Shown here: piece by piece, positions 1 through 43,472 of the stretch
Position numbering within the stretch: the stretch's first letter is position 1
Layout of the letters: every line of letters starts with the position of its first letter
From: a virus
Strand: one strand, 5' to 3'
Length of the DNA: 43,472 nt
UHGV virus genome: UHGV-0252305
Position numbers and translations under genes: made by a program
Notes under the pieces: model-generated
What the model was told of the DNA's origin: nothing
Seen by the model: the letters and a program-made list of their open reading frames with translations, nothing else
The model's database searches: none

Positions 1-992
1 AAGGTAAAGATTATGTACATGTCATCGATATGGGCGAAATACTCGCTACGCATGGTGATAAAAAAATTCCAGCTCTAATCCGCAGGATGCGCGAAACCGC
101 AGGGGATGAACCTATTGGCATGGTTGCCTTCGACACCCTTAACCAGACGCTGGCCCTGACGATTGATAAGTTCGACGAGAACAGTTCATCAACAGCAATC
201 GGCATGGGTAAAGTTATCGCCATTCTGAAAGAAGTACGCGATGCAACTAAAGCCGCAGTAGGCGTTGTCCACCATACGCCGAAGGGTGGAAAGAAAGCAC
301 GCGGCAGTGGGGCGCTGTATGCGGGTGTTGACGTGGAACTGACAATCGAACGTGCAACCGACCGTCAGATAAACGTATATCACTCGAAATTCAAGCACGG
401 GCCTCAGCAGAAGACGGTTGGCATGGTGCTGGAGTCGGTACAGTTCCGTGAAGCGCCGCCGCCTAAAGAATACCGAGCGGTTGAGTTCCTGGGTAGCACA
501 GAGGAATACGGCACAATCGTAAACCTGGACCTGCCTGAACCACACAAGGCGCTTGTGTTGATGCCGTGGGGTTTCGAGCCGTTCAAAACTGACGAGGAGA
601 AAGAGCGGGAAGAAGGGTTGACGAAAGAAGGTAAAGAAAATGTACGTAAAACCGTAGAGAACGCCGTCAACAGTTCGGAGGCCACGATACTCGCGGCGTT
701 TGAACTGGCGGAAGGAACCTACAACGGCAACGAAGGCATCACAGTCGCCGCGGCGAATAAGCTCGCACAGTCAGACCCCAACGCAAAGGCGTTTAACTCC
801 AAAGAAGCCATAGAACGCGGGAAGATTAAGAAAATGGTTGAGGCTGGGTATCTTGTTCCGGGTACTGACGAAAACAATCAGATAATCCCAGGCCGTTACA
901 GACTGAACACCAAGATAACAGATAACAAGATTCCGAAGACAATATACGAACCGAATGAAATGCTGACAGTGACCGAGGAGGATTTGGAATGA
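1..992 (+). CDS. Primase-helicase, C-terminal part (RecA-like NTPase); 5'-truncated at window start, first full codon at position 3
   Basis: Frame is open from position 3 with no stop; motif VVHHTPKGGKKARGSGAL resembles the RecA/DnaB-type helicase H4 region; in frame with the ORF running off the window 3' end. Confidence 0.65.
   Translation, partial: GKDYVHVIDMGEILATHGDKKIPALIRRMRETAGDEPIGMVAFDTLNQTLALTIDKFDENSSSTAIGMGKVIAILKEVRDATKAAVGVVHHTPKGGKKARGSGALYAGVDVELTIERATDRQINVYHSKFKHGPQQKTVGMVLESVQFREAPPPKEYRAVEFLGSTEEYGTIVNLDLPEPHKALVLMPWGFEPFKTDEEKEREEGLTKEGKENVRKTVENAVNSSEATILAAFELAEGTYNGNEGITVAAANKLAQSDPNAKAFNSKEAIERGKIKKMVEAGYLVPGTDENNQIIPGRYRLNTKITDNKIPKTIYEPNEMLTVTEEDLE
975..992 (+). repeat. 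18-nt sequence identical to 3945..3962 (gene 3' end plus SD plus overlapping ATG)
   Basis: gaggaggatttggaatga at both loci; encodes C-terminal EEDLE and initiates a small ORF. Confidence 0.8.
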
Positions 993-1144
993 ATATTTAC
1001 GATTTTATAGATAACCCGTTTAAAGCAGTGAAGGCAGGATACCGCCCGTCATACCTGACATGTGTTTCCGCTGTAAGCAACAACTGGTGGACTTTTTGTG
1101 TGTGTATGCAGCGGGGATTTTTGCGGAGTTTAAAGACATTTTAG
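989..1144 (+). CDS. Hypothetical small protein (51 aa), translationally coupled
   Basis: ATG at 989 overlaps upstream stop (ATGA); strong SD GAGGAGGA upstream; codon-by-codon translation checked; not in ORF track (<60 aa). Confidence 0.35.
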   Translation: MNIYDFIDNPFKAVKAGYRPSYLTCVSAVSNNWWTFCVCMQRGFLRSLKTF

Positions 1145-1146
1145 AC

Positions 1147-1305
1147 ATGACGCTGGCAGAGATTATAAAGTGCCTTTTCAAATTAATTATATCGATAACT
1201 ATTGTTATAAGTTTTCCTGTAAGTGCGTGGTTTCTCGCCTGGATTCAGTACCTGAACGTGCAACACACTATTAAGAATTTGGAAGAACTCGATAAGTTGC
1301 TATAA
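1147..1305 (+). CDS. Hypothetical small hydrophobic protein (C-terminal part of track ORF 1060..1305)
   Basis: Hydrophobic stretch LFKLIISITIVISFPVSAWFLAWI; start uncertain, weak RBS. Confidence 0.25.
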   Translation: MTLAEIIKCLFKLIISITIVISFPVSAWFLAWIQYLNVQHTIKNLEELDKLL

Positions 1306-1598: not shown

Positions 1599-1627
1599 TT
1601 GACATGTGAATAGTTCGCTATTATAGT
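1599..1627 (+). promoter_or_regulatory. Sigma70-like early promoter TTGACA-17-TATAGT with AATAG-N4-CTATT inverted repeat
   Basis: Near-consensus -35 and -10 at 17-nt spacing; inverted repeat at 1609..1622; 29 nt upstream of gene 1656. Confidence 0.6.
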
Positions 1628-1655
1628 TAGCCCATACCAAACGAGAGGGGCAGAT

Positions 1656-2451: not shown

Positions 2452-2724
2452 ATGATTTACCAACTCTACCGAGCCGTCGACAGGCGGGATAACACAGAGG
2501 CGCTATGGCTATTGCGTGCTCCGTCCGGTGCGCACCAGATGGAAGAGATGGCGTACTTAGGAAAAGTACCACGGCCTAAAGATACAGGCCGTCACGTGTC
2601 ACAGATTAAGCGCACAACTTTCGCCAAGCCTGACTTTTATGTCTTCGAGTCGATGTATGGGTGGGCCATGCACTGCGACCATAAGACACGACATTTAATT
2701 GACCAGTGGGAGAACAGGGTATGA
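2452..2724 (+). CDS. Hypothetical protein
   Basis: 90-aa ORF, stop overlaps next start (ATGA). Confidence 0.5.
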   Translation: MIYQLYRAVDRRDNTEALWLLRAPSGAHQMEEMAYLGKVPRPKDTGRHVSQIKRTTFAKPDFYVFESMYGWAMHCDHKTRHLIDQWENRV

Positions 2725-3962
2725 TTCTAAAAGAACGCGGTGGCAATAATGATGTGCACGCCTTATTGTCGCCGTCAGGTGCTAAGAAGTGGCTGACGTG
2801 CAGTGCATCACTGGCCTGTGAAAAAGATATTCCTAACACGTCAGGTAAAGCTGCCGTTACGGGGACCGCCATGCACACCATAGCTGAGGTCCATCTCAAC
2901 ACCTATATACGCGGCACTGCGTTGCCGTTGGAGCGTGAAGTCGGCGCTTACGTACTGGATGAAGGCAAAGGTCAGATTAAGGCGCTAATCAGCCCGATGA
3001 AAGGCGCGGTACTGATTACGGCGGACATGATTGAGCAGGTGCGCAAGTACACCGACTACTGCAAAGCGATTATAGACGTAGCGACTTACGCCAAGCTGGA
3101 AATGCGTGTCAATCTTACTGAGGTATTGCATCCGGGGTATGAAGGCGTTGAGACGTTCGGAACCGCTGACCTCGTTGCTGTCCAGGAACTGGCAAACACC
3201 GACGAGCACATGCTCATTATCGGCGACCTGAAAACCGGGCGGCATCGCGTCGAAGCGAAAGAAAACAAGCAGCTTATGCTTTACGCTCTCGGTGTTTATC
3301 GTCGACTCAAGAGACGTTATAACATAACAACCGTTCGTCTGGTCATCTTCCAGCCTTACGCTGGGGGCGCGACAGAGTGGGACATCTCGGTTGAAGGACT
3401 GGAACTGTTCGCTAAGTTCGCACAGAAACGCGCGCTGTTAGCGCTTGATGCGTATTTCCGTGGCAAGAAGAACCTGAAAGCGTCGGACTTCAAGCCATCG
3501 GTAGATGGTTGTCAGTGGTGCCGGTTCTCTGAACAATGCGCTGCGCGTACAAAGACGGTTAATTCTGTACTGGCGGAAGAACTGGAAGACGACTTTGTGC
3601 TGGAACTGACGCCGGAGCAACTCGTAGCTGAGTATGAGAAGTTGCCGCTGTTGCGCCAGCACATCGACAAGGTTGAGAAAGCTATGGCGGCCGCGTTGCA
3701 TTCAGGTAAGAAAGTTCCTGGTTACAAGTTGGTTGAAGGCCGCCCGGGTAATCGTGCATGGAAAGACGCGGAGAAAGTAACAGAACTCTACGGCGACAAG
3801 CTGACTAAAGAAGTGCTCATGTCACCTACCGAAGCTGTTAAAGTCATACCGGAAGAAGAACTGAAAGACTTCATTACCCGTAAGCCAGGCGCACCATGTG
3901 TCGCAACGGCAGACGACAAACGTCCTGAGTGGAATCAGGTAACAGAGGAGGATTTGGAATGA
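2721..3962 (+). CDS. Cas4-like / RecB-family PD-(D/E)XK nuclease with Fe-S cysteine cluster
   Basis: D...IGDLKTG...QLMLYAL nuclease motifs; N-terminal Cys (LTCSA) plus C-terminal CQWCRFSEQC (C-x2-C-x5-C); ATG at 2721 has SD GGGAG, track GTG start at 2706 does not. Confidence 0.75.
   Translation: MILKERGGNNDVHALLSPSGAKKWLTCSASLACEKDIPNTSGKAAVTGTAMHTIAEVHLNTYIRGTALPLEREVGAYVLDEGKGQIKALISPMKGAVLITADMIEQVRKYTDYCKAIIDVATYAKLEMRVNLTEVLHPGYEGVETFGTADLVAVQELANTDEHMLIIGDLKTGRHRVEAKENKQLMLYALGVYRRLKRRYNITTVRLVIFQPYAGGATEWDISVEGLELFAKFAQKRALLALDAYFRGKKNLKASDFKPSVDGCQWCRFSEQCAARTKTVNSVLAEELEDDFVLELTPEQLVAEYEKLPLLRQHIDKVEKAMAAALHSGKKVPGYKLVEGRPGNRAWKDAEKVTELYGDKLTKEVLMSPTEAVKVIPEEELKDFITRKPGAPCVATADDKRPEWNQVTEEDLE
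3945..3962 (+). repeat. Second copy of the 18-nt gene-junction repeat
   Basis: Identical to 975..992. Confidence 0.8.
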
Positions 3963-4162
3963 TTCAAGTAAATGAAATGCCCACAGATAAAGATTTTGTG
4001 ATGATATGGCGCTGGGGCGGTTATATCCATTCGGAATCGTTTACGTTCCTGAACGGCACGATGGTGCGATACAACCATGTGGAGGATGAATTCGAACCCG
4101 TTGATATGAATGATTTCGAGAACATAGTCCGTATTGCGAAATTTTATTTGACACCTGAATAG
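3959..4162 (+). CDS. Hypothetical protein (67 aa)
   Basis: ATG overlaps upstream stop (ATGA); same SD-containing 18-nt sequence as at 975..992. Confidence 0.5.
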   Translation: MIQVNEMPTDKDFVMIWRWGGYIHSESFTFLNGTMVRYNHVEDEFEPVDMNDFENIVRIAKFYLTPE

Positions 4163-4176
4163 TTAGCTATTATAGT
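4148..4176 (+). promoter_or_regulatory. Promoter-like site TTGACA-17-TATAGT with AATAG-N4-CTATT
   Basis: Inverted repeat at 4158..4171; upstream of SSB-like gene. Confidence 0.55.
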
Positions 4177-4235
4177 TCTAATCACTGACCGGGCAGCTTC
4201 CCGGAGTAAACGAAACTTAAAAGCGAGAAATTAAG

Positions 4236-4862
4236 ATGGGTATTAAACTGAATCTGCGTAAAGTAAACACTGCTTGGGTTAACGTATTTGAACGTGAAAA
4301 AGACCGTGAAAACGATGATGGCTCAATCACTAAAGGCCAGTACAGCGCGACTATCATCCTGCCGTCTGACCATGCTCAAATCGATGCACTCTACGACACC
4401 GTTTACGCTGTAGTTGAAGAAGCGTTAGGCGCAGCCGCTGCCGAGAAATGGATGAAGTCCAACTACGGTGAAGGTAAGCACATGGATAAATGCGCGATTA
4501 AAGACATTGCCGAGCGCGACAATCCGTTTGAAGACTTCCCGGAAGGCTTCTACTTCAAAGCGAAGGCACAGAAACAGCCGCTGATTGTAACCTCTAAAAA
4601 AGGTGAGACTCAGGTAGAGCAGGACTTCAACGTAGACGGCGAACAGATTGAAGGTGAACAGGTTTACAGCGGATGCTTAGCTAACGTAAGCGTTGAAATC
4701 TGGTTCAGCCAGAAATACAAAGTCCTCGGCGTTAACCTGCTGGCGATTAAATACGTTGGCGAAGGCAAAGCGTTCGGCGGTTCTAAAGTCGCCGCGAGCG
4801 TCAATGACCTGGAAGATGACGAAGAAGATGAAGCACCGCGCCGTGAACGTCGTCGCCGCTAA
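4236..4862 (+). CDS. Putative single-stranded DNA-binding protein (DUF2815-like) with acidic C-terminal region
   Basis: N-terminal pattern resembles phage DUF2815/SSB family as I recall it; acidic tail DLEDDEEDEA; sits between nuclease and polymerase genes. Confidence 0.45.
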   Translation: MGIKLNLRKVNTAWVNVFEREKDRENDDGSITKGQYSATIILPSDHAQIDALYDTVYAVVEEALGAAAAEKWMKSNYGEGKHMDKCAIKDIAERDNPFEDFPEGFYFKAKAQKQPLIVTSKKGETQVEQDFNVDGEQIEGEQVYSGCLANVSVEIWFSQKYKVLGVNLLAIKYVGEGKAFGGSKVAASVNDLEDDEEDEAPRRERRRR

Positions 4863-4922: not shown

Positions 4923-7094
4923 ATGAGTTACCTGTTCTTAGACTTTGAAACATTCTCAGAAGCCGATTTGAAGAAAGTCGGTTCTTACGCTTACGCCGAA
5001 CACCCGTCAACCGAAGTGCTTATCTGTACATATGCTTTTGACGACGAACCTGTGCGGGTATGGGATTGCACCGACGGCAGCGACATGCCGGGGGATTTAC
5101 ACCGCGCACTGCGCCGCCTTGTTAAGCCCAACAGCCGCATCAAGATGGTGTGGCACAACGGTGGACTTTTCGATCGCCTAATCATGAAACACTGCTGGGA
5201 CTTTGATATTCCGGTAAGTAACACCATTGATACTATGATTTGGGCGTTCCGTCACGCGCTGCCGGGTTCTCTTGATGCGCTGTGCGAAGTGCTGGGCGTG
5301 TCTACAGACAACGCGAAAGATAAACGCGGCAAGGCTCTGATTAAGCGTTTCTCTAAACCGACGCCGAAGAACTACAAAATCCGCCGCTACACCGCAGAAA
5401 CTCACCCTGACGAGTGGGCGATGTTCATCAGGTACGCCGTGAGCGACATCACTGCGATGCGTGAAGTCTTCCATAAGCTGCCGCGTTGGGGTAACTCCGA
5501 GTTCGAAGACCGTGTACTGGAACTGGACCAGTTGATTAACGACCGCGGATTTAAGGTTGACGTTGCACTGGCAGAAGCCGCGATTGAAGCCGTGGAGAAG
5601 CACAAAGCGCAGCTACAGGAAGAAGCACAGCGCAAATACGGCGGCTCGCTTACTGGTAAAGACTTCCTGCCGATTCTGCGTGAACTTGCACCAGCGCACC
5701 GCATCCACAACGCGCAGAAGTCTACGCTTAACGACCTGTTGGCGGATGATGATTTACCGGACGACGCACGCACGATTATCGAAATGCGCCTCGGGGCCGC
5801 GTCCACAGCGTCAACGAAATATAACCCGCTGCTGTTAGGGCGCTCGTCGGACGACCGCCGTCGTGGTTGCATTCAGTACGGCGGAGCCAAGCGTACATTA
5901 CGATTTGCCGGTAAAGGCTTTCAGCCGCAGAACCTCGCGCGTGGGTACTATCACGATGATGAACTGGATAAAGGTATTTCAGCGTTACTTAAGGGCCGCG
6001 CCCATCGCCGTTTCGATGTGGCCAAGCTAACGGCATCGACCGTTCGTAGCTGCATCATACCGGAAGCAGGGCATAAGTTTGTCGTTGCCGATTACTCTAA
6101 CGTCGAAGGCCGCGGTCTTGCGTGGCTGGCGGGTGAAGACGATTTAATCGAAGTATTTGTAAACGGGGTTGATGTGTATAAGAAACTCGCATCAACGGTG
6201 TTCAATGTTGCATATGAAGCCGTAACAAAGGACCAAAGACAAATAGCCAAAGCAATGGTTCTGGGACTCGGCTACGCGGGGGGCGTCGGTGCTTTCGTCA
6301 CGTTTGCTAAAAACTTAGGTCTTGATTTGAATGACATGACTAACACTTTAGACGGTACATTCCCGGACCATATTTGGGCCGCTACCGCACGCGGATACGA
6401 ATGGGCGCGTATTCAGGAAGCCAAGCGACCACCACGTCCTGGTGAAAAAGATGACCGACCCTCATATATCCTTGATAAGAAAGTTTGGCGCACCTGTGAC
6501 GCTTTAAAGCGCATGTACCGGGAAGCTAATCCTGCAATAGTCCAATTCTGGCGCGATATTGAAGACGCGGCTATGGCGGCTATCCGCAACCCAGGTAAAG
6601 AGTTCACCGCAGGGCCGCGTGGCGTTAAGTTTTCGCGCAACGTGGAGACAGATAACAACGGCAACAAAGTCGCCGGTTGGTGGCTGCGCATGACGTTGCC
6701 GTCTGGTCGCGTTATGTCTTATCCAGGCGTCGGGTTGAGCGTGTCGAAAGAAACAGACGAAGATGGAAAAGTTTCTACTAACGTGCGCATCAAGTATCAG
6801 GGTGAAAATCAGTTAACCAGGCAGTGGGGCTTCCAGTACACCTACTCCGGTAAACTGGTGGAAAACTGCACTCAGGCACTGTGCCGTGACTTGCTGGCTA
6901 ATGCGCTACTTAACGTTGAAGCAAACGGCTACCCGATTGTACTTCACGTACACGATGAGATTATCTGCGAGACACCGGATTCGCCTGAATACAATGTCGC
7001 AGAGCTTGAGCGATTGATGTGCGAATTACCAGAATGGGCGGAGGGGTTCCCTCTTGTAGCGGAAGGTCAGGAGTTAAAACGCTATGCTAAGTAA
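4923..7094 (+). CDS. Family A (Pol I-like) DNA polymerase with 3'-5' exonuclease domain
   Basis: 723 aa; exonuclease motif LDFETFS (D-x-E); polymerase motifs RQIAKAMVLGLGYAGG and VHDEIICE. Confidence 0.9.
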   Translation: MSYLFLDFETFSEADLKKVGSYAYAEHPSTEVLICTYAFDDEPVRVWDCTDGSDMPGDLHRALRRLVKPNSRIKMVWHNGGLFDRLIMKHCWDFDIPVSNTIDTMIWAFRHALPGSLDALCEVLGVSTDNAKDKRGKALIKRFSKPTPKNYKIRRYTAETHPDEWAMFIRYAVSDITAMREVFHKLPRWGNSEFEDRVLELDQLINDRGFKVDVALAEAAIEAVEKHKAQLQEEAQRKYGGSLTGKDFLPILRELAPAHRIHNAQKSTLNDLLADDDLPDDARTIIEMRLGAASTASTKYNPLLLGRSSDDRRRGCIQYGGAKRTLRFAGKGFQPQNLARGYYHDDELDKGISALLKGRAHRRFDVAKLTASTVRSCIIPEAGHKFVVADYSNVEGRGLAWLAGEDDLIEVFVNGVDVYKKLASTVFNVAYEAVTKDQRQIAKAMVLGLGYAGGVGAFVTFAKNLGLDLNDMTNTLDGTFPDHIWAATARGYEWARIQEAKRPPRPGEKDDRPSYILDKKVWRTCDALKRMYREANPAIVQFWRDIEDAAMAAIRNPGKEFTAGPRGVKFSRNVETDNNGNKVAGWWLRMTLPSGRVMSYPGVGLSVSKETDEDGKVSTNVRIKYQGENQLTRQWGFQYTYSGKLVENCTQALCRDLLANALLNVEANGYPIVLHVHDEIICETPDSPEYNVAELERLMCELPEWAEGFPLVAEGQELKRYAK

Positions 7095-7450: not shown

Positions 7451-7731
7451 CCCCGGAAGGCAAGATTCAGAAATACGCAAAAGAGCAATTCGAGGCCATT
7501 GGCGGCCTCGTTCGTAAACTTTCGTACGAGGGGCGCTCCGGCGCCCCTGACCTGCTGGTAATTCTCCCCGGCGGCATCGTCTGGTTCGTCGAGGTTAAGA
7601 AAGACGAAAACACGAAGCCAGACCCGCACCAGTTACGTGAGCATGAGCGGATGCGTAAACGCGGTGCAAATGTTTTTGTCGTTGGTTCGTTTAAACAGGT
7701 TGACGACCTAATAGCAAACTATTATAGTTAG
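7447..7731 (+). CDS. VRR-NUC domain nuclease
   Basis: 94 aa; PD-(D/E)XK-type motif PDLLVIL...VEVKK typical of VRR-NUC. Confidence 0.75.
   Translation: MTPEGKIQKYAKEQFEAIGGLVRKLSYEGRSGAPDLLVILPGGIVWFVEVKKDENTKPDPHQLREHERMRKRGANVFVVGSFKQVDDLIANYYS
7700..7728 (+). promoter_or_regulatory. Promoter-like site TTGACG-17-TATAGT with AATAG-N4-CTATT
   Basis: Inverted repeat at 7710..7723; lies in 3' end of VRR-NUC gene, upstream of 7762. Confidence 0.55.
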
Positions 7732-7761: not shown

Positions 7762-7953
7762 ATGAAACACGAATACGACCGCAAACCAGCACGTGACATC
7801 GTACCGGGCGACATGATTTTCAACGTTAAGACCCGTCGGCCTGTTGCCGTGGATACGGTGTTCGTCGAGTCGAACGGTAAACTGGTTATCGAAGACGTAA
7901 CCGGCAACGTTACCGCGTTCGGGCGTAAAGAGCTTGTTCTGGTGGCAAAATGA
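7762..7953 (+). CDS. Hypothetical protein
   Basis: 63-aa ORF downstream of promoter-like site at 7700..7728; stop overlaps helicase start. Confidence 0.5.
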   Translation: MKHEYDRKPARDIVPGDMIFNVKTRRPVAVDTVFVESNGKLVIEDVTGNVTAFGRKELVLVAK

Positions 7954-9374
7954 GTAAGTTTCAAAGACGCGAGTACCAGAAGCTCATGACCTCGTTCATG
8001 CTGCAACACCCGCGCTGTAATATCTGGTGCGGAATGGGGGGAGGTAAAACCTCCTCCACTATGTGGGTGCTCAACCGCCTGTTCCGCAACGGGCAGCTTA
8101 CGGAAGAGGACCGCGTGTTAATCCTTGCCCCGTTACGTGTTGCGTCCGGTACGTGGCCCGCTGAACAAGAGAAATGGCAATTCCCTTGTCTGCGTGTCGT
8201 AGATGCAACTGGTTCGGAGAAGCGCCGCATCGCAGCGCTGGAGTCAGATGCTAACGTGGTGTGCACTAACTACGAAGTTATCGAGTGGCTAATTGACTAC
8301 TACGGCAAAGACGACTGGCCTTTTACGGTTATCGTTGCCGATGAAAGCACGAAGCTTAAATCGTTCCGCAGCCGTTCGGGTGGTAGCAAGCGGGCAAAGG
8401 CGCTCAGCAAGGTTGCGTTCGGAAAGGTTAAGCGTTTCATTAACCTGACTGGCACGCCGTCGCCAAACGGCCTCAAGGACTTGTGGGGGCAGAACTGGTT
8501 TATCGACGCTGGCGAGCGACTCGGTTCATCGTACACAGCATTCACCGACCGCTGGTTTAACTCGGTACAGAAAGGTAAATCGGCTATGGCCCGCGAGTAT
8601 CATGCACGACCGGGTGCGGATAATGAGATTCATCAGAAGATGAAAGACATCAGCCTGACCATAGACCCTGCCGAGTGGTTTGGTTGTGAAGCGCCTGTTA
8701 TCGTACCGGTGGAAATAGACCTGCCGAAGAAAGCGCGTCAGGCGTACATAGATATGGAGGAGAAGTTATTCGCAGAACTGGAGAGCGGGGAAGTTGAAGC
8801 GGCTAACGCTGCGGCGAAGACCTCAAAGTGCTTGCAGATTGCATCTGGTGCCGTGTATGTGTCAGGGCCGGATGGCGAAGCGACCAAAGACTGGGAGAAA
8901 GTGCACGACACGAAACTGGATGCGCTCGAGTCGATTGTTGAGGAGTTGCAGGGTGCGCCGTTGCTGGTAGCCTATCAGTTTAAACACGAACTGGAGCGTA
9001 TCCTTAAGCGATTCCCACAGGCACAGGCGTTCGCCAAAGGCGCTAGGGGGAACAAGCAGATGGAAGCGTGGAACCGTGGGGAAATCGAGATTTTATGCGT
9101 GCATCCTGCGTCAGCCGGGCATGGTTTGAATTTACAGGACGGGGGTCATCATCTGGCGTTCATCTCGCAAGGCTGGAACCTTGAGCACTATTTGCAGGTT
9201 GTTGAGCGCATAGGCCCAGTCCGCCAGAAACAGGCGGGTCACGAGCGCCCGGTGTTCCTTTATCACATCGTTGCTAAAGACACTCTGGACGAGGTTGTCG
9301 CCGCTCGTACAGACGAGAAAAGGTCTGTACAGGATGAACTACTTAATTATATGAAACGTAGGAGTAAGAAATGA
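7950..9374 (+). CDS. SNF2/DEAD-like superfamily 2 helicase
   Basis: Walker A GMGGGKTS; DExx box VIVADEST; C-terminal helicase domain; 474 aa. Confidence 0.85.
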   Translation: MSKFQRREYQKLMTSFMLQHPRCNIWCGMGGGKTSSTMWVLNRLFRNGQLTEEDRVLILAPLRVASGTWPAEQEKWQFPCLRVVDATGSEKRRIAALESDANVVCTNYEVIEWLIDYYGKDDWPFTVIVADESTKLKSFRSRSGGSKRAKALSKVAFGKVKRFINLTGTPSPNGLKDLWGQNWFIDAGERLGSSYTAFTDRWFNSVQKGKSAMAREYHARPGADNEIHQKMKDISLTIDPAEWFGCEAPVIVPVEIDLPKKARQAYIDMEEKLFAELESGEVEAANAAAKTSKCLQIASGAVYVSGPDGEATKDWEKVHDTKLDALESIVEELQGAPLLVAYQFKHELERILKRFPQAQAFAKGARGNKQMEAWNRGEIEILCVHPASAGHGLNLQDGGHHLAFISQGWNLEHYLQVVERIGPVRQKQAGHERPVFLYHIVAKDTLDEVVAARTDEKRSVQDELLNYMKRRSKK

Positions 9375-42178: not shown

Positions 42179-43472
42179 ATGCCCGATGTAATTTTATCCT
42201 ACTCGTGGTCACGCCGCAACGCGCGGGCGGGAAAAAAGGATATAAATGTCAGAACCGCACACACGGCAACACTGGACGACCTGAAAGAGTTAATCCAGCC
42301 GCTCGATGCCGTTCGCGACGGGATTAACCCTAAGACCGCGCCCGGTTATATCACCGCCGCGTGCGACTCAACGCACAGCACCGTAAAAGACCCGGAAACT
42401 GGAGACTTTAAGCAAGCGCGTAAAGGTTTTTTCTACCGCTGCGATGCGTCTGTAAGCAAATCGTCGCTGGCCTATCTGGATTTCGACAGCACAACACCGG
42501 AAGAGTATCAGGAAGCGGTGCGCCTGGTTAAGCGCAGCCGCAGGGCCATGTGCCTCTATACCACGGCATCACATACTGATGAGTCACCGCGCTTTCGCGT
42601 CGTAATGCCACTGGCCCGTCCGGTGGAGGGTGGTGACATCATCCGTGTTCGTCATGGGTTGCTGGAGCACTTCTTCAAAGGCATGGGTGCGGACCGCAGC
42701 GGGTTCACTCTGTCGCAGCCGATGTACCTGCCGCCGGTCGGCGCTACCGTTATCTGGTCGCGCCGCAACGACCTGATCGACCCGAACGAGTTACTGGAAG
42801 GCATCCCAGCCGTTGACGTTAGCAGCGCATCGGATTACCAGATACCGGAAGAACTGCGCACCGCGTTTACAGACGCGTTTGAAGCACTGGCGTTTGAGTA
42901 CGGCGGCGTCATGACGCCGCGCGGCCTTAAGATGCCAGCCACACCGGAACATGCCGAAAACTACAGCGACCCGACACCGCGCCCGGACGACTTCCTGCTG
43001 TGCTTCCCGCGCGAGGGGTATGAAGCGCCAAACGTAACCATGATTCACGACACAGACATTACGGCGACAGAAGGCCTGTCACCGAAAGAGGTGTGGAAGT
43101 ACGCGTGCGATGCGACCGGGCTGCCGTTCAGTGAAGTCGCAGAGGCCATCGGTTGGGGTGCGCGTGAATCTGTCTCATGCAGCCTCGACGACCTGGAAGA
43201 CGACGAGGACTCAGAGGAGGACGAGTTACCAGAACCGGTAAAGGCTGATTTCGTCGTTGAGGGGTACATGCCGTCGGATTGTATCTGGGATATTGTCGGG
43301 GAATCCGGCACGTACAAATCATTCTATACGCTGGGGATGATGTACCTGAGCGCCGCCGGGTACCGGTTTGCGGGGGCTGACACCCAACGTTGCCACCATT
43401 TCTATATTGACGGCGAGGGTGGTGCAGCTACACGAACACGTATTGATGCACTCGCGGCTAAATATGGCGAGG
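42179..43472 (+). CDS. Primase-helicase, N-terminal part (AEP/PrimPol-like), 3'-truncated at window end
   Basis: LDFDS (DxD) motif and TTASHTDE segment suggest primase-polymerase fold; frame open to last base; SD AAGGAAA. Confidence 0.65.
   Translation, partial: MPDVILSYSWSRRNARAGKKDINVRTAHTATLDDLKELIQPLDAVRDGINPKTAPGYITAACDSTHSTVKDPETGDFKQARKGFFYRCDASVSKSSLAYLDFDSTTPEEYQEAVRLVKRSRRAMCLYTTASHTDESPRFRVVMPLARPVEGGDIIRVRHGLLEHFFKGMGADRSGFTLSQPMYLPPVGATVIWSRRNDLIDPNELLEGIPAVDVSSASDYQIPEELRTAFTDAFEALAFEYGGVMTPRGLKMPATPEHAENYSDPTPRPDDFLLCFPREGYEAPNVTMIHDTDITATEGLSPKEVWKYACDATGLPFSEVAEAIGWGARESVSCSLDDLEDDEDSEEDELPEPVKADFVVEGYMPSDCIWDIVGESGTYKSFYTLGMMYLSAAGYRFAGADTQRCHHFYIDGEGGAATRTRIDALAAKYGE

What the first reader, a model, noticed from the sequence alone, without database searches (positions are those of the whole stretch)
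969..992. Primase-helicase and Cas4-like nuclease share an identical C-terminal EEDLE tail and gene-junction sequence (second copy at 3938..3962)
Two different replication proteins end with ...VTEEDLE, encoded by an identical 18-nt sequence that also carries a strong Shine-Dalgarno (GAGGAGGA) and an overlapping ATG for a downstream small ORF. The SSB-like protein also has an acidic C-terminal region. Acidic C-terminal tails are a known docking device for replisome partners (as in T7 gp4 and gp2.5), so this may be a shared interaction motif. Alternatively the repeat is maintained for translational coupling.
Basis: partly seen in the sequence, partly recalled or inferred. Interest (0 to 1): 0.45.

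Follow-up and report, generated by a model that had tools for sequence, protein, structure and literature searches.

The report
Shared acidic docking tail on replication proteins
Two unrelated DNA-replication proteins of this phage end in the same seven amino acids, and comparison with hundreds of related phages suggests this is a conserved docking peptide, probably used by several replication proteins to bind one common partner that is still unidentified, rather than a by-product of the ribosome-binding site written into the same DNA.

Summary
GAGGAGGATTTGGAATGA occurs exactly twice (975-992, 3945-3962). The helicase-primase and the DUF2800/Cas4-like nuclease both end in VTEEDLE*, each with an in-frame SD and an ATGA stop/start overlap.

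What is conserved is the peptide, not the DNA. In about 75 related loci and about 360 protein clusters, T-E-x-D-L-E is kept through synonymous changes. Many nuclease genes encode it as GAAGAAGAT..TAA, with no SD and no overlapping start. It persists where the helicase-primase lies on the opposite strand, with the variants ASDEDL and ATDDDL matched in both proteins.

The motif also occurs in the helicase-primase linker (CSLDDLEDD), in the SSB (SVNDLEDD) and on small accessory ORFs of relatives. Polymerase and SNF2 helicase lack it. More distant phages with the same module have their own genome-wide tail (..DDEV, ..DDEL, ..EWD, ..DDFDDI...DLV).

Best reading: a short linear docking motif comparable to the T7 gp4/gp2.5 acidic tails. 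The receptor is unidentified; the candidates are the SSB groove and the polymerase. The SD/ATGA is an overlay that explains the 18-nt identity. Gene conversion, RNA structure and chance are not supported. I found no prior description in the papers searched. Binding is inferred, not shown.

The parts
969..992 (+). Last 7 codons plus stop of the helicase-primase (VTEEDLE*). Carries the in-frame SD GAGGAGGA (975-982) and the ATGA stop/start overlap (989-992).
   Evidence: Conserved as L-[VTI]-V-T-E-E-D-L-E in 111 of 120 helicase-primase clusters.
3939..3962 (+). Last 7 codons plus stop of the DUF2800/Cas4-like nuclease (VTEEDLE*), with the same SD (3945-3952) and ATGA overlap (3959-3962).
   Evidence: V-[TS]-E-E-D-L-E in about 110 of the 120 closest clusters, D-L invariant in 239 clusters. 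The tail has pLDDT about 43 in the AF2 model.
43178..43204 (+). Internal copy of the motif (CSLDDLEDD) in the linker between the primase and helicase domains. It uses different codons (GAC CTG GAA).
   Evidence: C-T/S-x-x-D-L is invariant in helicase-primases only 31-38% identical. It lies in a low-pLDDT segment (323-352) of the homologue model.
4797..4820 (+). Motif copy in the SSB (SVNDLEDD), at the start of its C-terminal region beyond the OB fold. An acidic run and a basic RRERRRR end follow, up to 4862.
   Evidence: The equivalents in related lineages are CSDEDLGDD and ATDDDLGDD. The C-terminal tail of the homologous Enc34 SSB is disordered (PMC5686142).
42179..43472 (+). Helicase-primase gene, N-terminal part. 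The gene continues at window position 1 and gives 761 aa from the first ATG.
   Evidence: The primase half is a divergent allele and the helicase half is about 94% identical to known Kagunavirus-type proteins.
1..992 (+). Helicase-primase gene, C-terminal part (end of the AAA_25 helicase domain, a C-terminal domain, then the tail).
   Evidence: (phrog_3228, E = 1.9e-121).
2721..3962 (+). DUF2800 / PD-(D/E)XK Cas4-like nuclease gene (413 aa from the ATG; the ORF opens at GTG 2706).
   Evidence: phrog_69 exonuclease.
4236..4862 (+). Enc34/T7 gp2.5-type SSB and annealing protein. It carries the motif and is also a candidate receptor through its concave beta-sheet groove.
   Evidence: phrog_112; PMC5686142.
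4923..7094 (+). Family A DNA polymerase. Among the Guernsey-, Dhillon- and VLCpiS11a-type loci it lacks the motif, which makes it a candidate receptor by analogy with T7 gp5.
   Evidence: (1 motif hit in 53,674 residues).
989..1305 (+). Small ORF translationally coupled to the helicase-primase (phrog_2638 family). In this window a 2-nt insertion splits it into 989-1144 and 1060-1305.
3959..4162 (+). Small ORF (67 aa, phrog_6314) translationally coupled to the nuclease. The family profile aligns from the ATGA start.

Best explanation
VTEEDLE is a short linear docking motif with the core [ST]-[DE]-x-D-L followed by acidic residues. It sits on flexible ends or linkers of several DNA-transaction proteins of this phage: the C-terminus and the inter-domain linker of the helicase-primase, the C-terminus of the Cas4-like nuclease, and the start of the SSB's C-terminal region.

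Because these otherwise unrelated proteins carry the same peptide, they can bind, and compete for, one common site on a phage-encoded partner. In this way helicase-primase, nuclease and SSB are brought together or exchanged at the fork or at recombination intermediates. T7 does the same with the acidic tails of gp4 and gp2.5, which bind basic patches on gp5.

I consider two receptors most likely. One is the concave beta-sheet groove of the gp2.5-type SSB, where SSB tails are seen bound in crystals. The other is a basic patch on the family A polymerase. I rate them at roughly 0.4 and 0.35, with 0.25 for another phage or host protein.

The Shine-Dalgarno sequence and the ATGA overlap are a second, nucleotide-level layer. 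Where a small downstream gene is coupled, the two Glu codons are GAG-GAG and form the SD. That is why the DNA is identical over 18 nt in this genome.

Shown here: peptide-level conservation, independence from the SD, covariation between lineages, restriction to replication-module proteins, and location in low-confidence segments. Inferred: that the motif binds anything, and what it binds.
For: Peptide-level selection:
- 36 distinct DNA versions of each tail in Guernseyvirinae loci keep T, E, D, L and E, with synonymous variation ACA/ACC/ACT/ACG/AGT, GAG/GAA, TTG/TTA and GAA/GAG.
- D-L is invariant in 239 nuclease and 120 helicase-primase clusters.

Independence from translational coupling:
- 23 nuclease genes encode the tail without an SD and end in TAA or TGA with no overlapping start, often followed directly by a TTGACA promoter.
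- The internal copies in the helicase-primase and SSB cannot serve as SDs, and they use other codons.

Independence from gene order:
- In Dhillonvirus-like and VLCpiS11a-like phages the helicase-primase gene is on the opposite strand and still ends ..ATDDDLKD or ..ASDEDLNS. The nuclease of the same genome ends ..ATDEDLSNE or ..ASDEDLS.

Specificity:
- Motif density per 1000 aa is 2.85 in the nuclease, 2.82 in the helicase-primase and 1.16 in the SSB, against 0.02 in the polymerase, 0 in SNF2 and 0.09 in 1,307 other ORFs.
- 11 of the 13 'other' hits are one 77-aa protein ending MTATLEDLE*, encoded next to the helicase-primase.
- A 62-67-aa ORF overlapping the polymerase start ends ..ATDEDLE* in group 2.

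Wider pattern:
- The DUF2800 family as a whole has an acidic-hydrophobic motif after its DKRP box.
- In 44 distinct environmental genomes the nuclease and SSB tails resemble each other more within a genome than between genomes (0-5 of 5000 permutations reach the observed value).
- Chi/Nazgul-like genomes have a lineage-specific terminal residue (V, L or W) shared by 3-6 proteins each.

Flexibility:
- The tails and the linker lie in low-pLDDT segments, each with an isolated helical turn on the motif.
- The Pfam DUF2800 model ends before the tail.

Precedent:
- T7 gp4 tails bind two basic patches on gp5 (PMC12593628).
- The gp2.5 tail interacts with polymerase and helicase and competes with the OB domain (PMC10359462).
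- The Enc34 SSB tail lies in the neighbouring molecule's beta-sheet groove, burying 842 A2 (PMC5686142).
Against: - No interaction was measured or modelled. The tools do not allow complex prediction, so both the binding and the receptor rest on analogy.
- The motif lacks the C-terminal aromatic residue that matters in T7 and in bacterial SSB tails (from my own knowledge).
- The polymerase is only a distant family A enzyme, not specifically T7-like.
- In Chi-like phages the tail is also on the small terminase subunit, which does not fit a purely replisomal hub.
- The permutation tests do not correct for shared ancestry of the genomes, so the number of independent covariation events is smaller than the number of genomes.
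- Both AF2 models are of modest quality (mean pLDDT 67 and 56) because the alignments are shallow.
- Within Guernseyvirinae the two tails are not always identical. Jersey-type helicase-primases have TTEGDLE while the nuclease has VTEDDLE or VSEEDLE.
Confidence: 0.65

Rival explanations
1. Cis-acting DNA-mimic tails. Each acidic tail folds back on the DNA-binding surface of its own protein, as described for T7 gp2.5 and T4 gp32, and tunes DNA binding. There is no common receptor, and the resemblance between proteins is convergent.
For: Every carrier is a DNA-binding protein: helicase-primase, nuclease and SSB, plus SNF2, VRR-NUC and TerS in other lineages. Removing the Enc34 SSB tail changes its DNA specificity (PMC5686142). 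The gp2.5 tail competes with its OB domain.
Against: A generic acidic tail would be enough for that role. Instead, specific residues (T, D-L) are invariant. The same variant is used by different proteins of one genome, and it changes in step between lineages: EEDLE, DEDL, DDEV, DDEL, EWD. The helicase-primase carries two copies, which is hard to relate to a single own DNA site.
Confidence: 0.15
2. The tails bind a host factor, for example a client of host SSB, or a chaperone or protease that reads C-termini. They would recruit or evade host machinery rather than organise the phage's own proteins.
For: In the distant clade the motif DDFDDI resembles the E. coli SSB tip DFDDDIPF (the E. coli sequence is from my own knowledge). 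TerS also carries the tail in Chi-like phages, so the partner need not be replisomal.
Against: Phages of the same hosts (E. coli, Salmonella) use quite different tails: TEEDLE in Kagunavirus, TD[DE]DL in Dhillonvirus and DDEV in Chivirus. That fits a co-evolving phage-encoded receptor better. VTEEDLE lacks the terminal I-P-F of the host SSB tip.
Confidence: 0.1
3. The repeat is kept at the nucleotide level for translational coupling (SD plus ATGA). The shared peptide is only what GAGGAGGATTTGGAATGA reads as in that frame.
For: GAGGAGGA lies 6 nt before an ATG overlapping the stop at both sites. The downstream ORFs belong to conserved families. In the nuclease gene SD-type codons co-occur with an overlapping start in 23 of 24 cases. 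At least four different downstream ORFs start exactly at each ATGA.
Against: 23 nuclease genes keep the peptide with GAAGAAGAT or GAAGACGAT and no overlapping start. 13 helicase-primase genes keep GAGGAGGA with a TAG stop and no overlap. Minus-strand helicase-primases and internal copies keep the motif with unrelated DNA. The residues T, L and the final E are not dictated by an SD.
Confidence: 0.05
4. Recent gene conversion or duplication between the two gene ends, or a conserved 'boundary sequence' that promotes exchange of the downstream cassettes. The peptide itself would have no function.
For: The two sites are 22/24 identical direct repeats 2,970 nt apart. Both lie exactly at mosaic boundaries, with at least 6 kinds of downstream sequence after the helicase-primase and at least 9 after the nuclease.
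Against: Synonymous-codon identity between the two tails is no higher within a genome than between genomes (0.592 against 0.571 +/- 0.024; 957 of 5000 permutations reach it). No downstream cassette is shared between the two junctions. The motif is conserved in lineages whose DNA is unrelated.
Confidence: 0.03
5. Chance, or an RNA-level element such as a structured regulatory site.
For: Short 14-18-nt near-repeats are common in this region. Sharing some 7-mer between any two proteins is not very rare (null mean 0.26 per proteome).
Against: An exact 18-mer pair has an expectation of 0.02. Identical C-terminal heptapeptides in 2 of 73 ORFs is on the order of 1e-5 by my own estimate. There is no Rfam match. 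Neither junction folds better than shuffles, z = +1.24 and +0.11.
Confidence: 0.02

Closest known systems
T7 replisome: the acidic C-terminal tails of gp4 (helicase-primase) and gp2.5 (SSB) dock on basic patches of the gp5 polymerase
   Same: Flexible acidic C-terminal tails sit on a helicase-primase, in a module whose SSB is of the gp2.5 structural type and whose polymerase is family A. Tails on different proteins resemble each other and are proposed to use the same site(s) (PMC12593628; PMC10359462; Pfam/PHROG assignments).
   Different: No terminal aromatic residue; the hydrophobic residue is a Leu followed by Glu. The motif is sequence-specific (T-x-x-D-L) rather than merely acidic. It is also on a Cas4-like nuclease, inside the helicase-primase linker and on small accessory ORFs. 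In this lineage the SSB carries it internally, followed by a basic tail. The polymerase is not specifically T7-like. The receptor is unknown.
Bacterial SSB C-terminal tip (SSB-Ct, ..DDDIPF) and its interactome
   Same: A short acidic-plus-hydrophobic peptide at the end of a disordered tail serves as a general docking device in DNA metabolism. The distant-clade version DDFDDI is similar in sequence.
   Different: The polarity is inverted. Here many different enzymes carry the peptide, rather than one SSB presenting it to many enzymes. The window's motif does not match DDDIPF, and it is not at the SSB's C-terminus.
Tail-in-groove contacts of DUF2815/gp2.5-type SSBs (Enc34 ORF6 crystal structure)
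   Same: Same SSB family as window 4236-4862 (Pfam Enc34_ssDNA-bd). The acidic C-terminal tail is disordered, and part of it lies in the concave beta-sheet of a neighbouring SSB molecule (PMC5686142). This gives a concrete candidate receptor site.
   Different: That paper describes only the SSB's own tail. It does not report that nuclease, primase-helicase and other module proteins carry the same tail. The Enc34-type tail ends ..DEV, not ..EEDLE.
Exonuclease-annealase pairs (lambda Exo-Red beta, RecE-RecT)
   Same: A 5'-processing nuclease is encoded next to an ssDNA-annealing protein, and a specific physical link is expected. The nuclease-SSB pairing and their matching tails are the most widespread part of the pattern.
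   Different: The folds differ (Cas4/RecB-like nuclease with four Cys; gp2.5-type OB fold). In lambda the contact is a folded Red beta C-terminal domain on Exo (PDB 6m9k appears), not a shared peptide.
Translationally coupled gene junctions (SD inside the upstream gene, ATGA overlap)
   Same: Both sites meet the anatomy exactly, and codon choice tracks the presence of a coupled gene.
   Different: Coupling explains the codon choice, not the conservation of the peptide.

Membership tests
Short linear (docking) motif | Short (3-10 residues) island of conservation inside poorly conserved sequence | tested here: met
   C-T-x-x-D-L and L-x-[ST]-[DE]-x-D-L are the only invariant residues in their neighbourhoods among helicase-primases 31-38% identical. 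T, E, D, L and E are invariant in 36 DNA versions of each tail.
Short linear (docking) motif | Lies in a disordered or flexible, accessible segment | tested here: met
   Nuclease tail pLDDT about 43. Helicase-primase segments 323-352 and 725-750 have pLDDT below 50. The Pfam DUF2800 model ends before the tail. The homologous SSB tail is disordered in the crystal. The models are of modest quality.
Short linear (docking) motif | Recurs in otherwise unrelated proteins of one functional system and is rare elsewhere | tested here: met
   Density per 1000 aa: 2.85, 2.82 and 1.16 in nuclease, helicase-primase and SSB, against 0.02, 0 and 0.09 in polymerase, SNF2 and other ORFs. Extra carriers are the 77-aa and 62-aa ORFs.
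Short linear (docking) motif | Binds a defined partner domain | not testable with these tools
   No complex prediction or experiment is available. The candidates (SSB groove, polymerase) rest on analogy.
T7-type acidic C-terminal tail system (gp4 / gp2.5 to gp5) | Acidic flexible C-terminal tail on the helicase-primase and on a gp2.5-type SSB | tested here: met
   The helicase-primase ends ..TVTEEDLE. The SSB is of the Enc34/gp2.5 type and has NDLEDDEEDE near its end. In this lineage the SSB terminus itself is basic (RRERRRR).
T7-type acidic C-terminal tail system (gp4 / gp2.5 to gp5) | C-terminal aromatic residue (Phe) as the key contact | tested here: not met
   The window tails end D-L-E, with no aromatic residue. 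Some distant lineages do use F or W. The requirement for Phe in T7 is from my own knowledge.
T7-type acidic C-terminal tail system (gp4 / gp2.5 to gp5) | Tails bind basic patches on a T7-like polymerase-thioredoxin complex | not testable with these tools
   The polymerase is family A but matches only Taq/Bst/Klenow over residues 372-480, at E about 1e-10. Neither a thioredoxin-binding domain nor a basic patch could be assessed.
Bacterial SSB-Ct motif | ..D-D-D-I-P-F at the extreme C-terminus of the SSB | tested here: not met
   The window SSB ends ..APRRERRRR. The motif is T-E-E-D-L-E and sits on other proteins.
Translationally coupled junction | SD 5-10 nt upstream of a start codon that overlaps the upstream stop, with a conserved downstream ORF | tested here: met
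   GAGGAGGA, 6 nt, ATGA at both sites. Downstream ORFs are phrog_2638 and phrog_6314, the latter aligned from the ATGA start. Codon choice correlates with the presence of an overlap. The ORF after the helicase-primase is frameshifted in this window.
Cas4-like / DUF2800 PD-(D/E)XK nuclease (identity of the second carrier) | DUF2800 and PDDEXK_1 profile matches, four conserved Cys (C..CxxC..C), RecB/Cas4-type fold | tested here: met
   Pfam E = 1.9e-68 and 2e-9. C27, C264, C267 and C273 are invariant. The best Foldseek hits are Cas4-family ACE1, AddAB, MGME1, AdnAB and type I-C Cas4. Nuclease activity and the Fe-S cluster were not tested.

The most novel reading that the evidence does not exclude
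A 'tail code' operates across a large set of phages that share the DUF2800 nuclease / gp2.5-type SSB / family A polymerase module: Guernseyvirinae, Dhillonvirus, Chi- and Nazgul-like phages and many uncultured ones. Each lineage has its own acidic-hydrophobic C-terminal peptide. Up to six DNA-transaction proteins use it as a common address label: helicase-primase, Cas4-like nuclease, SSB, SNF2 helicase, VRR-NUC resolvase and small terminase, plus small accessory ORFs that could act as competitors or regulators. All dock on one co-evolving phage-encoded hub. This would be an inverted version of the bacterial SSB-Ct interactome, and it would link replication, recombination and packaging.
Probability: 0.4. 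Interest if true: 0.75.

Novelty: new variant of a known kind. Interest (0 to 1): 0.55.

Why it matters
The replisomes of these common coliphage and Salmonella-phage groups, several of which are used in phage therapy and biocontrol, have not been studied biochemically as far as I know.

A 7-residue peptide shared by helicase-primase, nuclease and SSB gives a direct experimental handle. A peptide pull-down or a complex prediction should identify the organising hub. Tail swaps between lineages should test specificity. Small ORFs that carry only the tail (77 aa, 62 aa) could be natural regulators or competitors.

The case also shows one stretch of DNA carrying two layers of information: a docking peptide and the ribosome-binding site of the next gene. 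Codon choice reveals which layer is in use.

More generally, comparing the C-terminal residues of neighbouring genes is a cheap way to find interaction networks in uncharacterised phage modules.

Tried and rejected
- Chance: rejected.
- RNA element: no Rfam family in the window, and no stable or shared structure at the junctions.
- Gene conversion between the two tails: no excess synonymous identity within genomes.
- Recombination between the two repeats, or cassette exchange across them: no downstream sequence is shared between the junctions.
- The nearby near-repeat AATGAAATGC..ACAG (954-969 / 3971-3986) is at the level of the many chance 14-18-mers in the region and was dropped.
- Host SSB-Ct mimicry for this phage: the sequence does not fit, and phages of the same host use different tails.
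- The first homologous-protein search gave only 96-100% identical nucleases. It was useful only for tail statistics.
- The search for related loci with a 32-sequence alignment failed because there was no conserved stretch. It was repeated with 8 sequences.
- An alignment reference with a wrong frame failed.
- Sequence searches of the PDB found nothing for the nuclease or the helicase-primase.
- The AF2 models are of moderate or low confidence. I used them only for the order/disorder pattern and, for the nuclease core, for fold assignment.
- The literature search for 'EEDLE' was useless because it matches 'needle'. The other searches found no prior description of shared tails in these phages.
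Full report
**1. What is in the window**

The window is a Kagunavirus-type (Guernseyvirinae) siphophage genome. Its first 8 kb match 464 phage records, mostly Escherichia and Salmonella phages, at 80-96% identity.

The replication module is on the + strand. A helicase-primase of the AAA_25 type (phrog_3228) wraps around the window ends, 42179-43472 plus 1-992. It is followed by small ORFs, a DUF2800 / PD-(D/E)XK nuclease (2721-3962), a small ORF, an Enc34/gp2.5-type SSB (4236-4862), a family A polymerase (4923-7094), a resolvase-like ORF and an SNF2-type helicase (7950-9374).

The nuclease has four invariant cysteines. Its predicted core matches Cas4-family proteins, AddAB/AdnAB nuclease domains and MGME1, so the label 'Cas4-like' is fair.

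**2. The observation**

GAGGAGGATTTGGAATGA occurs exactly twice, at 975-992 and 3945-3962, against 0.02 expected. With the two preceding codons the repeat is 24 nt long and 22/24 identical.

Both copies encode V-T-E-E-D-L-E-stop at the end of the helicase-primase and of the nuclease. Both contain GAGGAGGA 6 nt upstream of an ATG that overlaps the TGA. The small ORFs that start there belong to conserved phage families, and for the nuclease junction the family profile aligns from that very ATG.

VTEEDLE is the only 7-mer shared by any two of the 73 ORFs, and the only shared C-terminal pentapeptide comes from it.

**3. Peptide or DNA?**

I fetched 74 related viral loci whose nucleases are 97% to 44% identical to the window's and extracted both gene ends.

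Within Guernseyvirinae there are 36 different DNA versions of each tail. T, E, D, L and E stay fixed as residues while their codons vary: ACA/ACC/ACT/ACG/AGT, GAG/GAA, TTG/TTA, GAA/GAG. In the large protein database D-L is invariant in 239 nuclease clusters and 120 helicase-primase clusters.

The nuclease gene provides an internal control. In 23 loci the tail is written GAGGAGGAT.. and a downstream start overlaps the stop. In 23 loci it is written GAAGAAGAT.. or GAAGACGAT.., the gene ends without an overlapping start, and a TTGACA promoter often follows directly. There is one exception. The peptide is the same in both classes.

So the SD is an overlay on a conserved peptide. The exact 18-nt identity in this genome reflects the same peptide plus the same overlay at both sites. 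Synonymous-codon identity between the two tails is no higher within a genome than between genomes (0.592 against 0.571 +/- 0.024). That argues against gene conversion.

**4. Deeper comparisons**

In Dhillonvirus-like phages (EK99P-1, jat) and in a group like Klebsiella phage VLCpiS11a, the helicase-primase gene lies on the opposite strand. It still ends in the motif, and in the variant that the nuclease of the same genome uses..ASDEDLNS with ..ASDEDLS..ATDDDLKD with ..ATDEDLSNE, and ..ATDDDLAD with ..ATDEDLE.

A 62-67-aa ORF overlapping the polymerase start ends ..ATDEDLE in one group. A 77-aa protein encoded next to the helicase-primase ends ..MTATLEDLE in 11 Kagunavirus loci.

The helicase-primase has a second, internal copy in the linker before its helicase domain. 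It reads CSLDDLEDD in the window (43178-43204), and C-T-x-x-D-L is invariant among proteins 31-38% identical.

The SSB carries the motif at the start of its C-terminal region: SVNDLEDD in the window (4797-4820), CSDEDLGDD and ATDDDLGDD in the other lineages. These internal copies use different codons and cannot act as SDs.

A motif pattern scored over the window plus 75 loci gives 2.85, 2.82 and 1.16 hits per 1000 residues in nuclease, helicase-primase and SSB. It gives 0.02 in the polymerase, 0 in the SNF2 helicase and 0.09 in 1,307 other ORFs, and nearly all of the last are the 77-aa protein.

**5. The wider family**

Among 150 representatives of the DUF2800 family, the conserved DKRP box is followed by an acidic-hydrophobic motif..[ST][DE][DE]DL.. 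in near branches, and ..DDFEDL.. and/or a terminal ..[DE]DL[ILV] in distant ones.

In 80 environmental loci from a distant clade, nuclease and SSB share a bipartite tail, for example VEDDFEDVTSDENVEDLV and SEDEFDDIAEGATADDLV. The last residues are more alike within a genome than between genomes (0-5 of 5000 permutations reach the observed value), and polymerase and SNF2 ends serve as negative controls. This test does not correct for shared ancestry.

In Chi- and Nazgul-like phages, three to six proteins per genome share the tail, and the terminal hydrophobic residue is lineage-specific:
- ..DDEV in Chi-like phages, on primase-helicase, nuclease, SSB and small terminase.
- ..D[DE]L in two other groups and in Burkholderia phage AH2.
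- ..EW[DN]x in one lineage.

Phages of the same hosts thus use different tails. That points to a phage-encoded, co-evolving receptor rather than a host one.

**6. Structure**

Both models are of moderate or low overall quality because only shallow alignments were permitted. The pattern is nevertheless consistent. The nuclease tail has low confidence (about 43) beyond a well-modelled core. In a close helicase-primase homologue, the linker with the internal motif (323-352) and the last 25 residues are below 50, and a folded domain precedes the tail. In all three places a short isolated helical turn is predicted on the motif.

The Enc34 SSB crystal structure shows a disordered acidic tail, part of which lies in the concave beta-sheet of a neighbouring molecule. 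The same is reported for other DUF2815 proteins and for T7 gp2.5 (PMC5686142).

**7. Mechanism**

The best-supported reading is a short linear docking motif shared by several DNA-transaction proteins. They would bind, and exchange on, one site of a common partner.

The closest known system is T7. There the acidic tails of gp4 bind two basic patches on gp5 (PMC12593628), and the gp2.5 tail contacts polymerase and helicase and competes with its own OB domain (PMC10359462).

Two receptors are plausible here. One is the SSB groove, for which there is structural precedent in this very family, and nuclease plus annealing SSB form a natural pair. The other is the polymerase, which lacks the motif among the Guernsey-, Dhillon- and VLCpiS11a-type loci.

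I cannot decide between them. The presence of the tail on the small terminase in Chi-like phages suggests that the hub is not purely replisomal. Binding is inferred throughout, not shown.

**8. Rivals**

- Translational coupling alone fails on the SD-less, overlap-less and internal copies.
- Cis-acting DNA-mimic tails do not explain why different proteins of one genome use the same specific variant, although such a role could coexist with docking.
- A host receptor is disfavoured by the different tails among phages of one host.
- Gene conversion, a role as a recombination boundary, RNA structure and chance found no support.

**9. Novelty**

Acidic C-terminal tails as docking devices are textbook for T7 and for bacterial SSB. 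In the searchable literature I found no description of a shared, sequence-specific tail on the helicase-primase, the Cas4-like nuclease, the SSB and accessory proteins of these phages, nor of its lineage-specific variants. I therefore rate it a new variant of a known kind, of moderate interest, and easy to test.

Noticed in passing
window 1090-1105 (ORFs 989-1144 and 1060-1305): A 2-nt (GT) insertion in a (TG)n tract, relative to SHAK7858 and L004, splits the 104-aa phrog_2638 ORF that is translationally coupled to the helicase-primase. It is either a real frameshift (slippage-prone tract) or a sequencing error.
   Followed up: partly
window 1599-1628, 4148-4177, 7700-7729 (degenerate copy at 1555-1584): A repeated promoter-like element, TTGACAnnTGAATAGTTnGCTATTATAGTT (11/12 match to sigma-70 hexamers), contains the palindrome AATAG-N4-CTATT between -35 and -10. 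It probably marks the operator of a phage regulator. Each copy precedes a block of replication-module genes. In relatives without the small ORF after the nuclease, the TTGACA follows the nuclease stop directly.
   Followed up: partly
window 4797-4862; L051 8587-9345, L059 8640-9506, L064, L073: The SSB C-terminal region in these lineages is unusual. After the motif come alternating acidic and basic blocks, e.g. DDDDEDDKPRKSKKSKRS-DDDDDEKPRKRRKPR-DDEDEDDDEDEAPRKRRRR, always ending in an Arg-rich tail. The window has a single unit. Classical SSB tails end acidic.
   Followed up: no
L077 10871-11440; L160, L161, L163, L165: In Chi-like phages and one related lineage the small terminase subunit (phrog_141) ends in the same lineage-specific acidic tail as the replication proteins..VDDDEV, and ..EAEDDEL in L165. 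This hints at a link between packaging and the replication/recombination hub.
   Followed up: partly
L004 2969-3202 (and 10 other Kagunavirus loci); L051 9393-9581 and L052-L058: Small tail-bearing ORFs: a 77-aa protein (phrog_5169, unknown function) ending MTATLEDLE* just upstream of the helicase-primase, and a 62-67-aa ORF ending ATDEDLE* that overlaps the polymerase start. In L058 the rest of that ORF is different but the tail is the same. Neither is present in the window.
   Followed up: partly
window 42179-43472 versus 1-992: The helicase-primase is mosaic. Its helicase half is about 94% identical to database proteins, but the primase half is a divergent allele, giving about 66% identity overall to SHAK7858-type proteins.
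   Followed up: no
window 3960-3962; L001 6975-6987; L020, L040, L044: The position of the nuclease stop varies by single-base changes. SHAK7858 reads TTA instead of TGA and ends VTEEDLELFK*; some phages stop one codon earlier (VTEEDL*); Jersey-type phages end VTEDDLEA* or ..EALTS*. Ending right after ..DLE is by far the commonest state.
   Followed up: yes
window 992 and 3962 onward, compared with L001-L050: Both tails sit exactly at mosaic boundaries. At least 6 unrelated sequences follow the helicase-primase stop and at least 9 follow the nuclease stop in relatives, and several different small ORFs start at the same ATGA.
   Followed up: partly
L001 (OR594183.1): The closest GenBank record, Escherichia phage vB_EcoM_SHAK7858, is filed under Autographiviridae; Studiervirinae; Kayfunavirus and named 'EcoM'. 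Its sequence and gene content are those of a Kagunavirus-type siphophage, so the taxonomy line looks wrong.
   Followed up: no
L051 5765-6460: The VLCpiS11a-like group encodes an Nmad5 protein (nucleotide modification associated domain 5, PF18757, E = 1.7e-29) between the helicase-primase and the nuclease. This suggests DNA modification in that lineage. I did not look for it in the window.
   Followed up: no
L078 6270-8324; L167 6012-8033: Nazgul-type polymerases carry a C-terminal extension with a CxxC pair (..FCTKCRKEDSL*..MCAKCRRETGL*). It ends in Leu, like the tails of the other module proteins in those genomes. It is unclear whether this is a coincidence.
   Followed up: no
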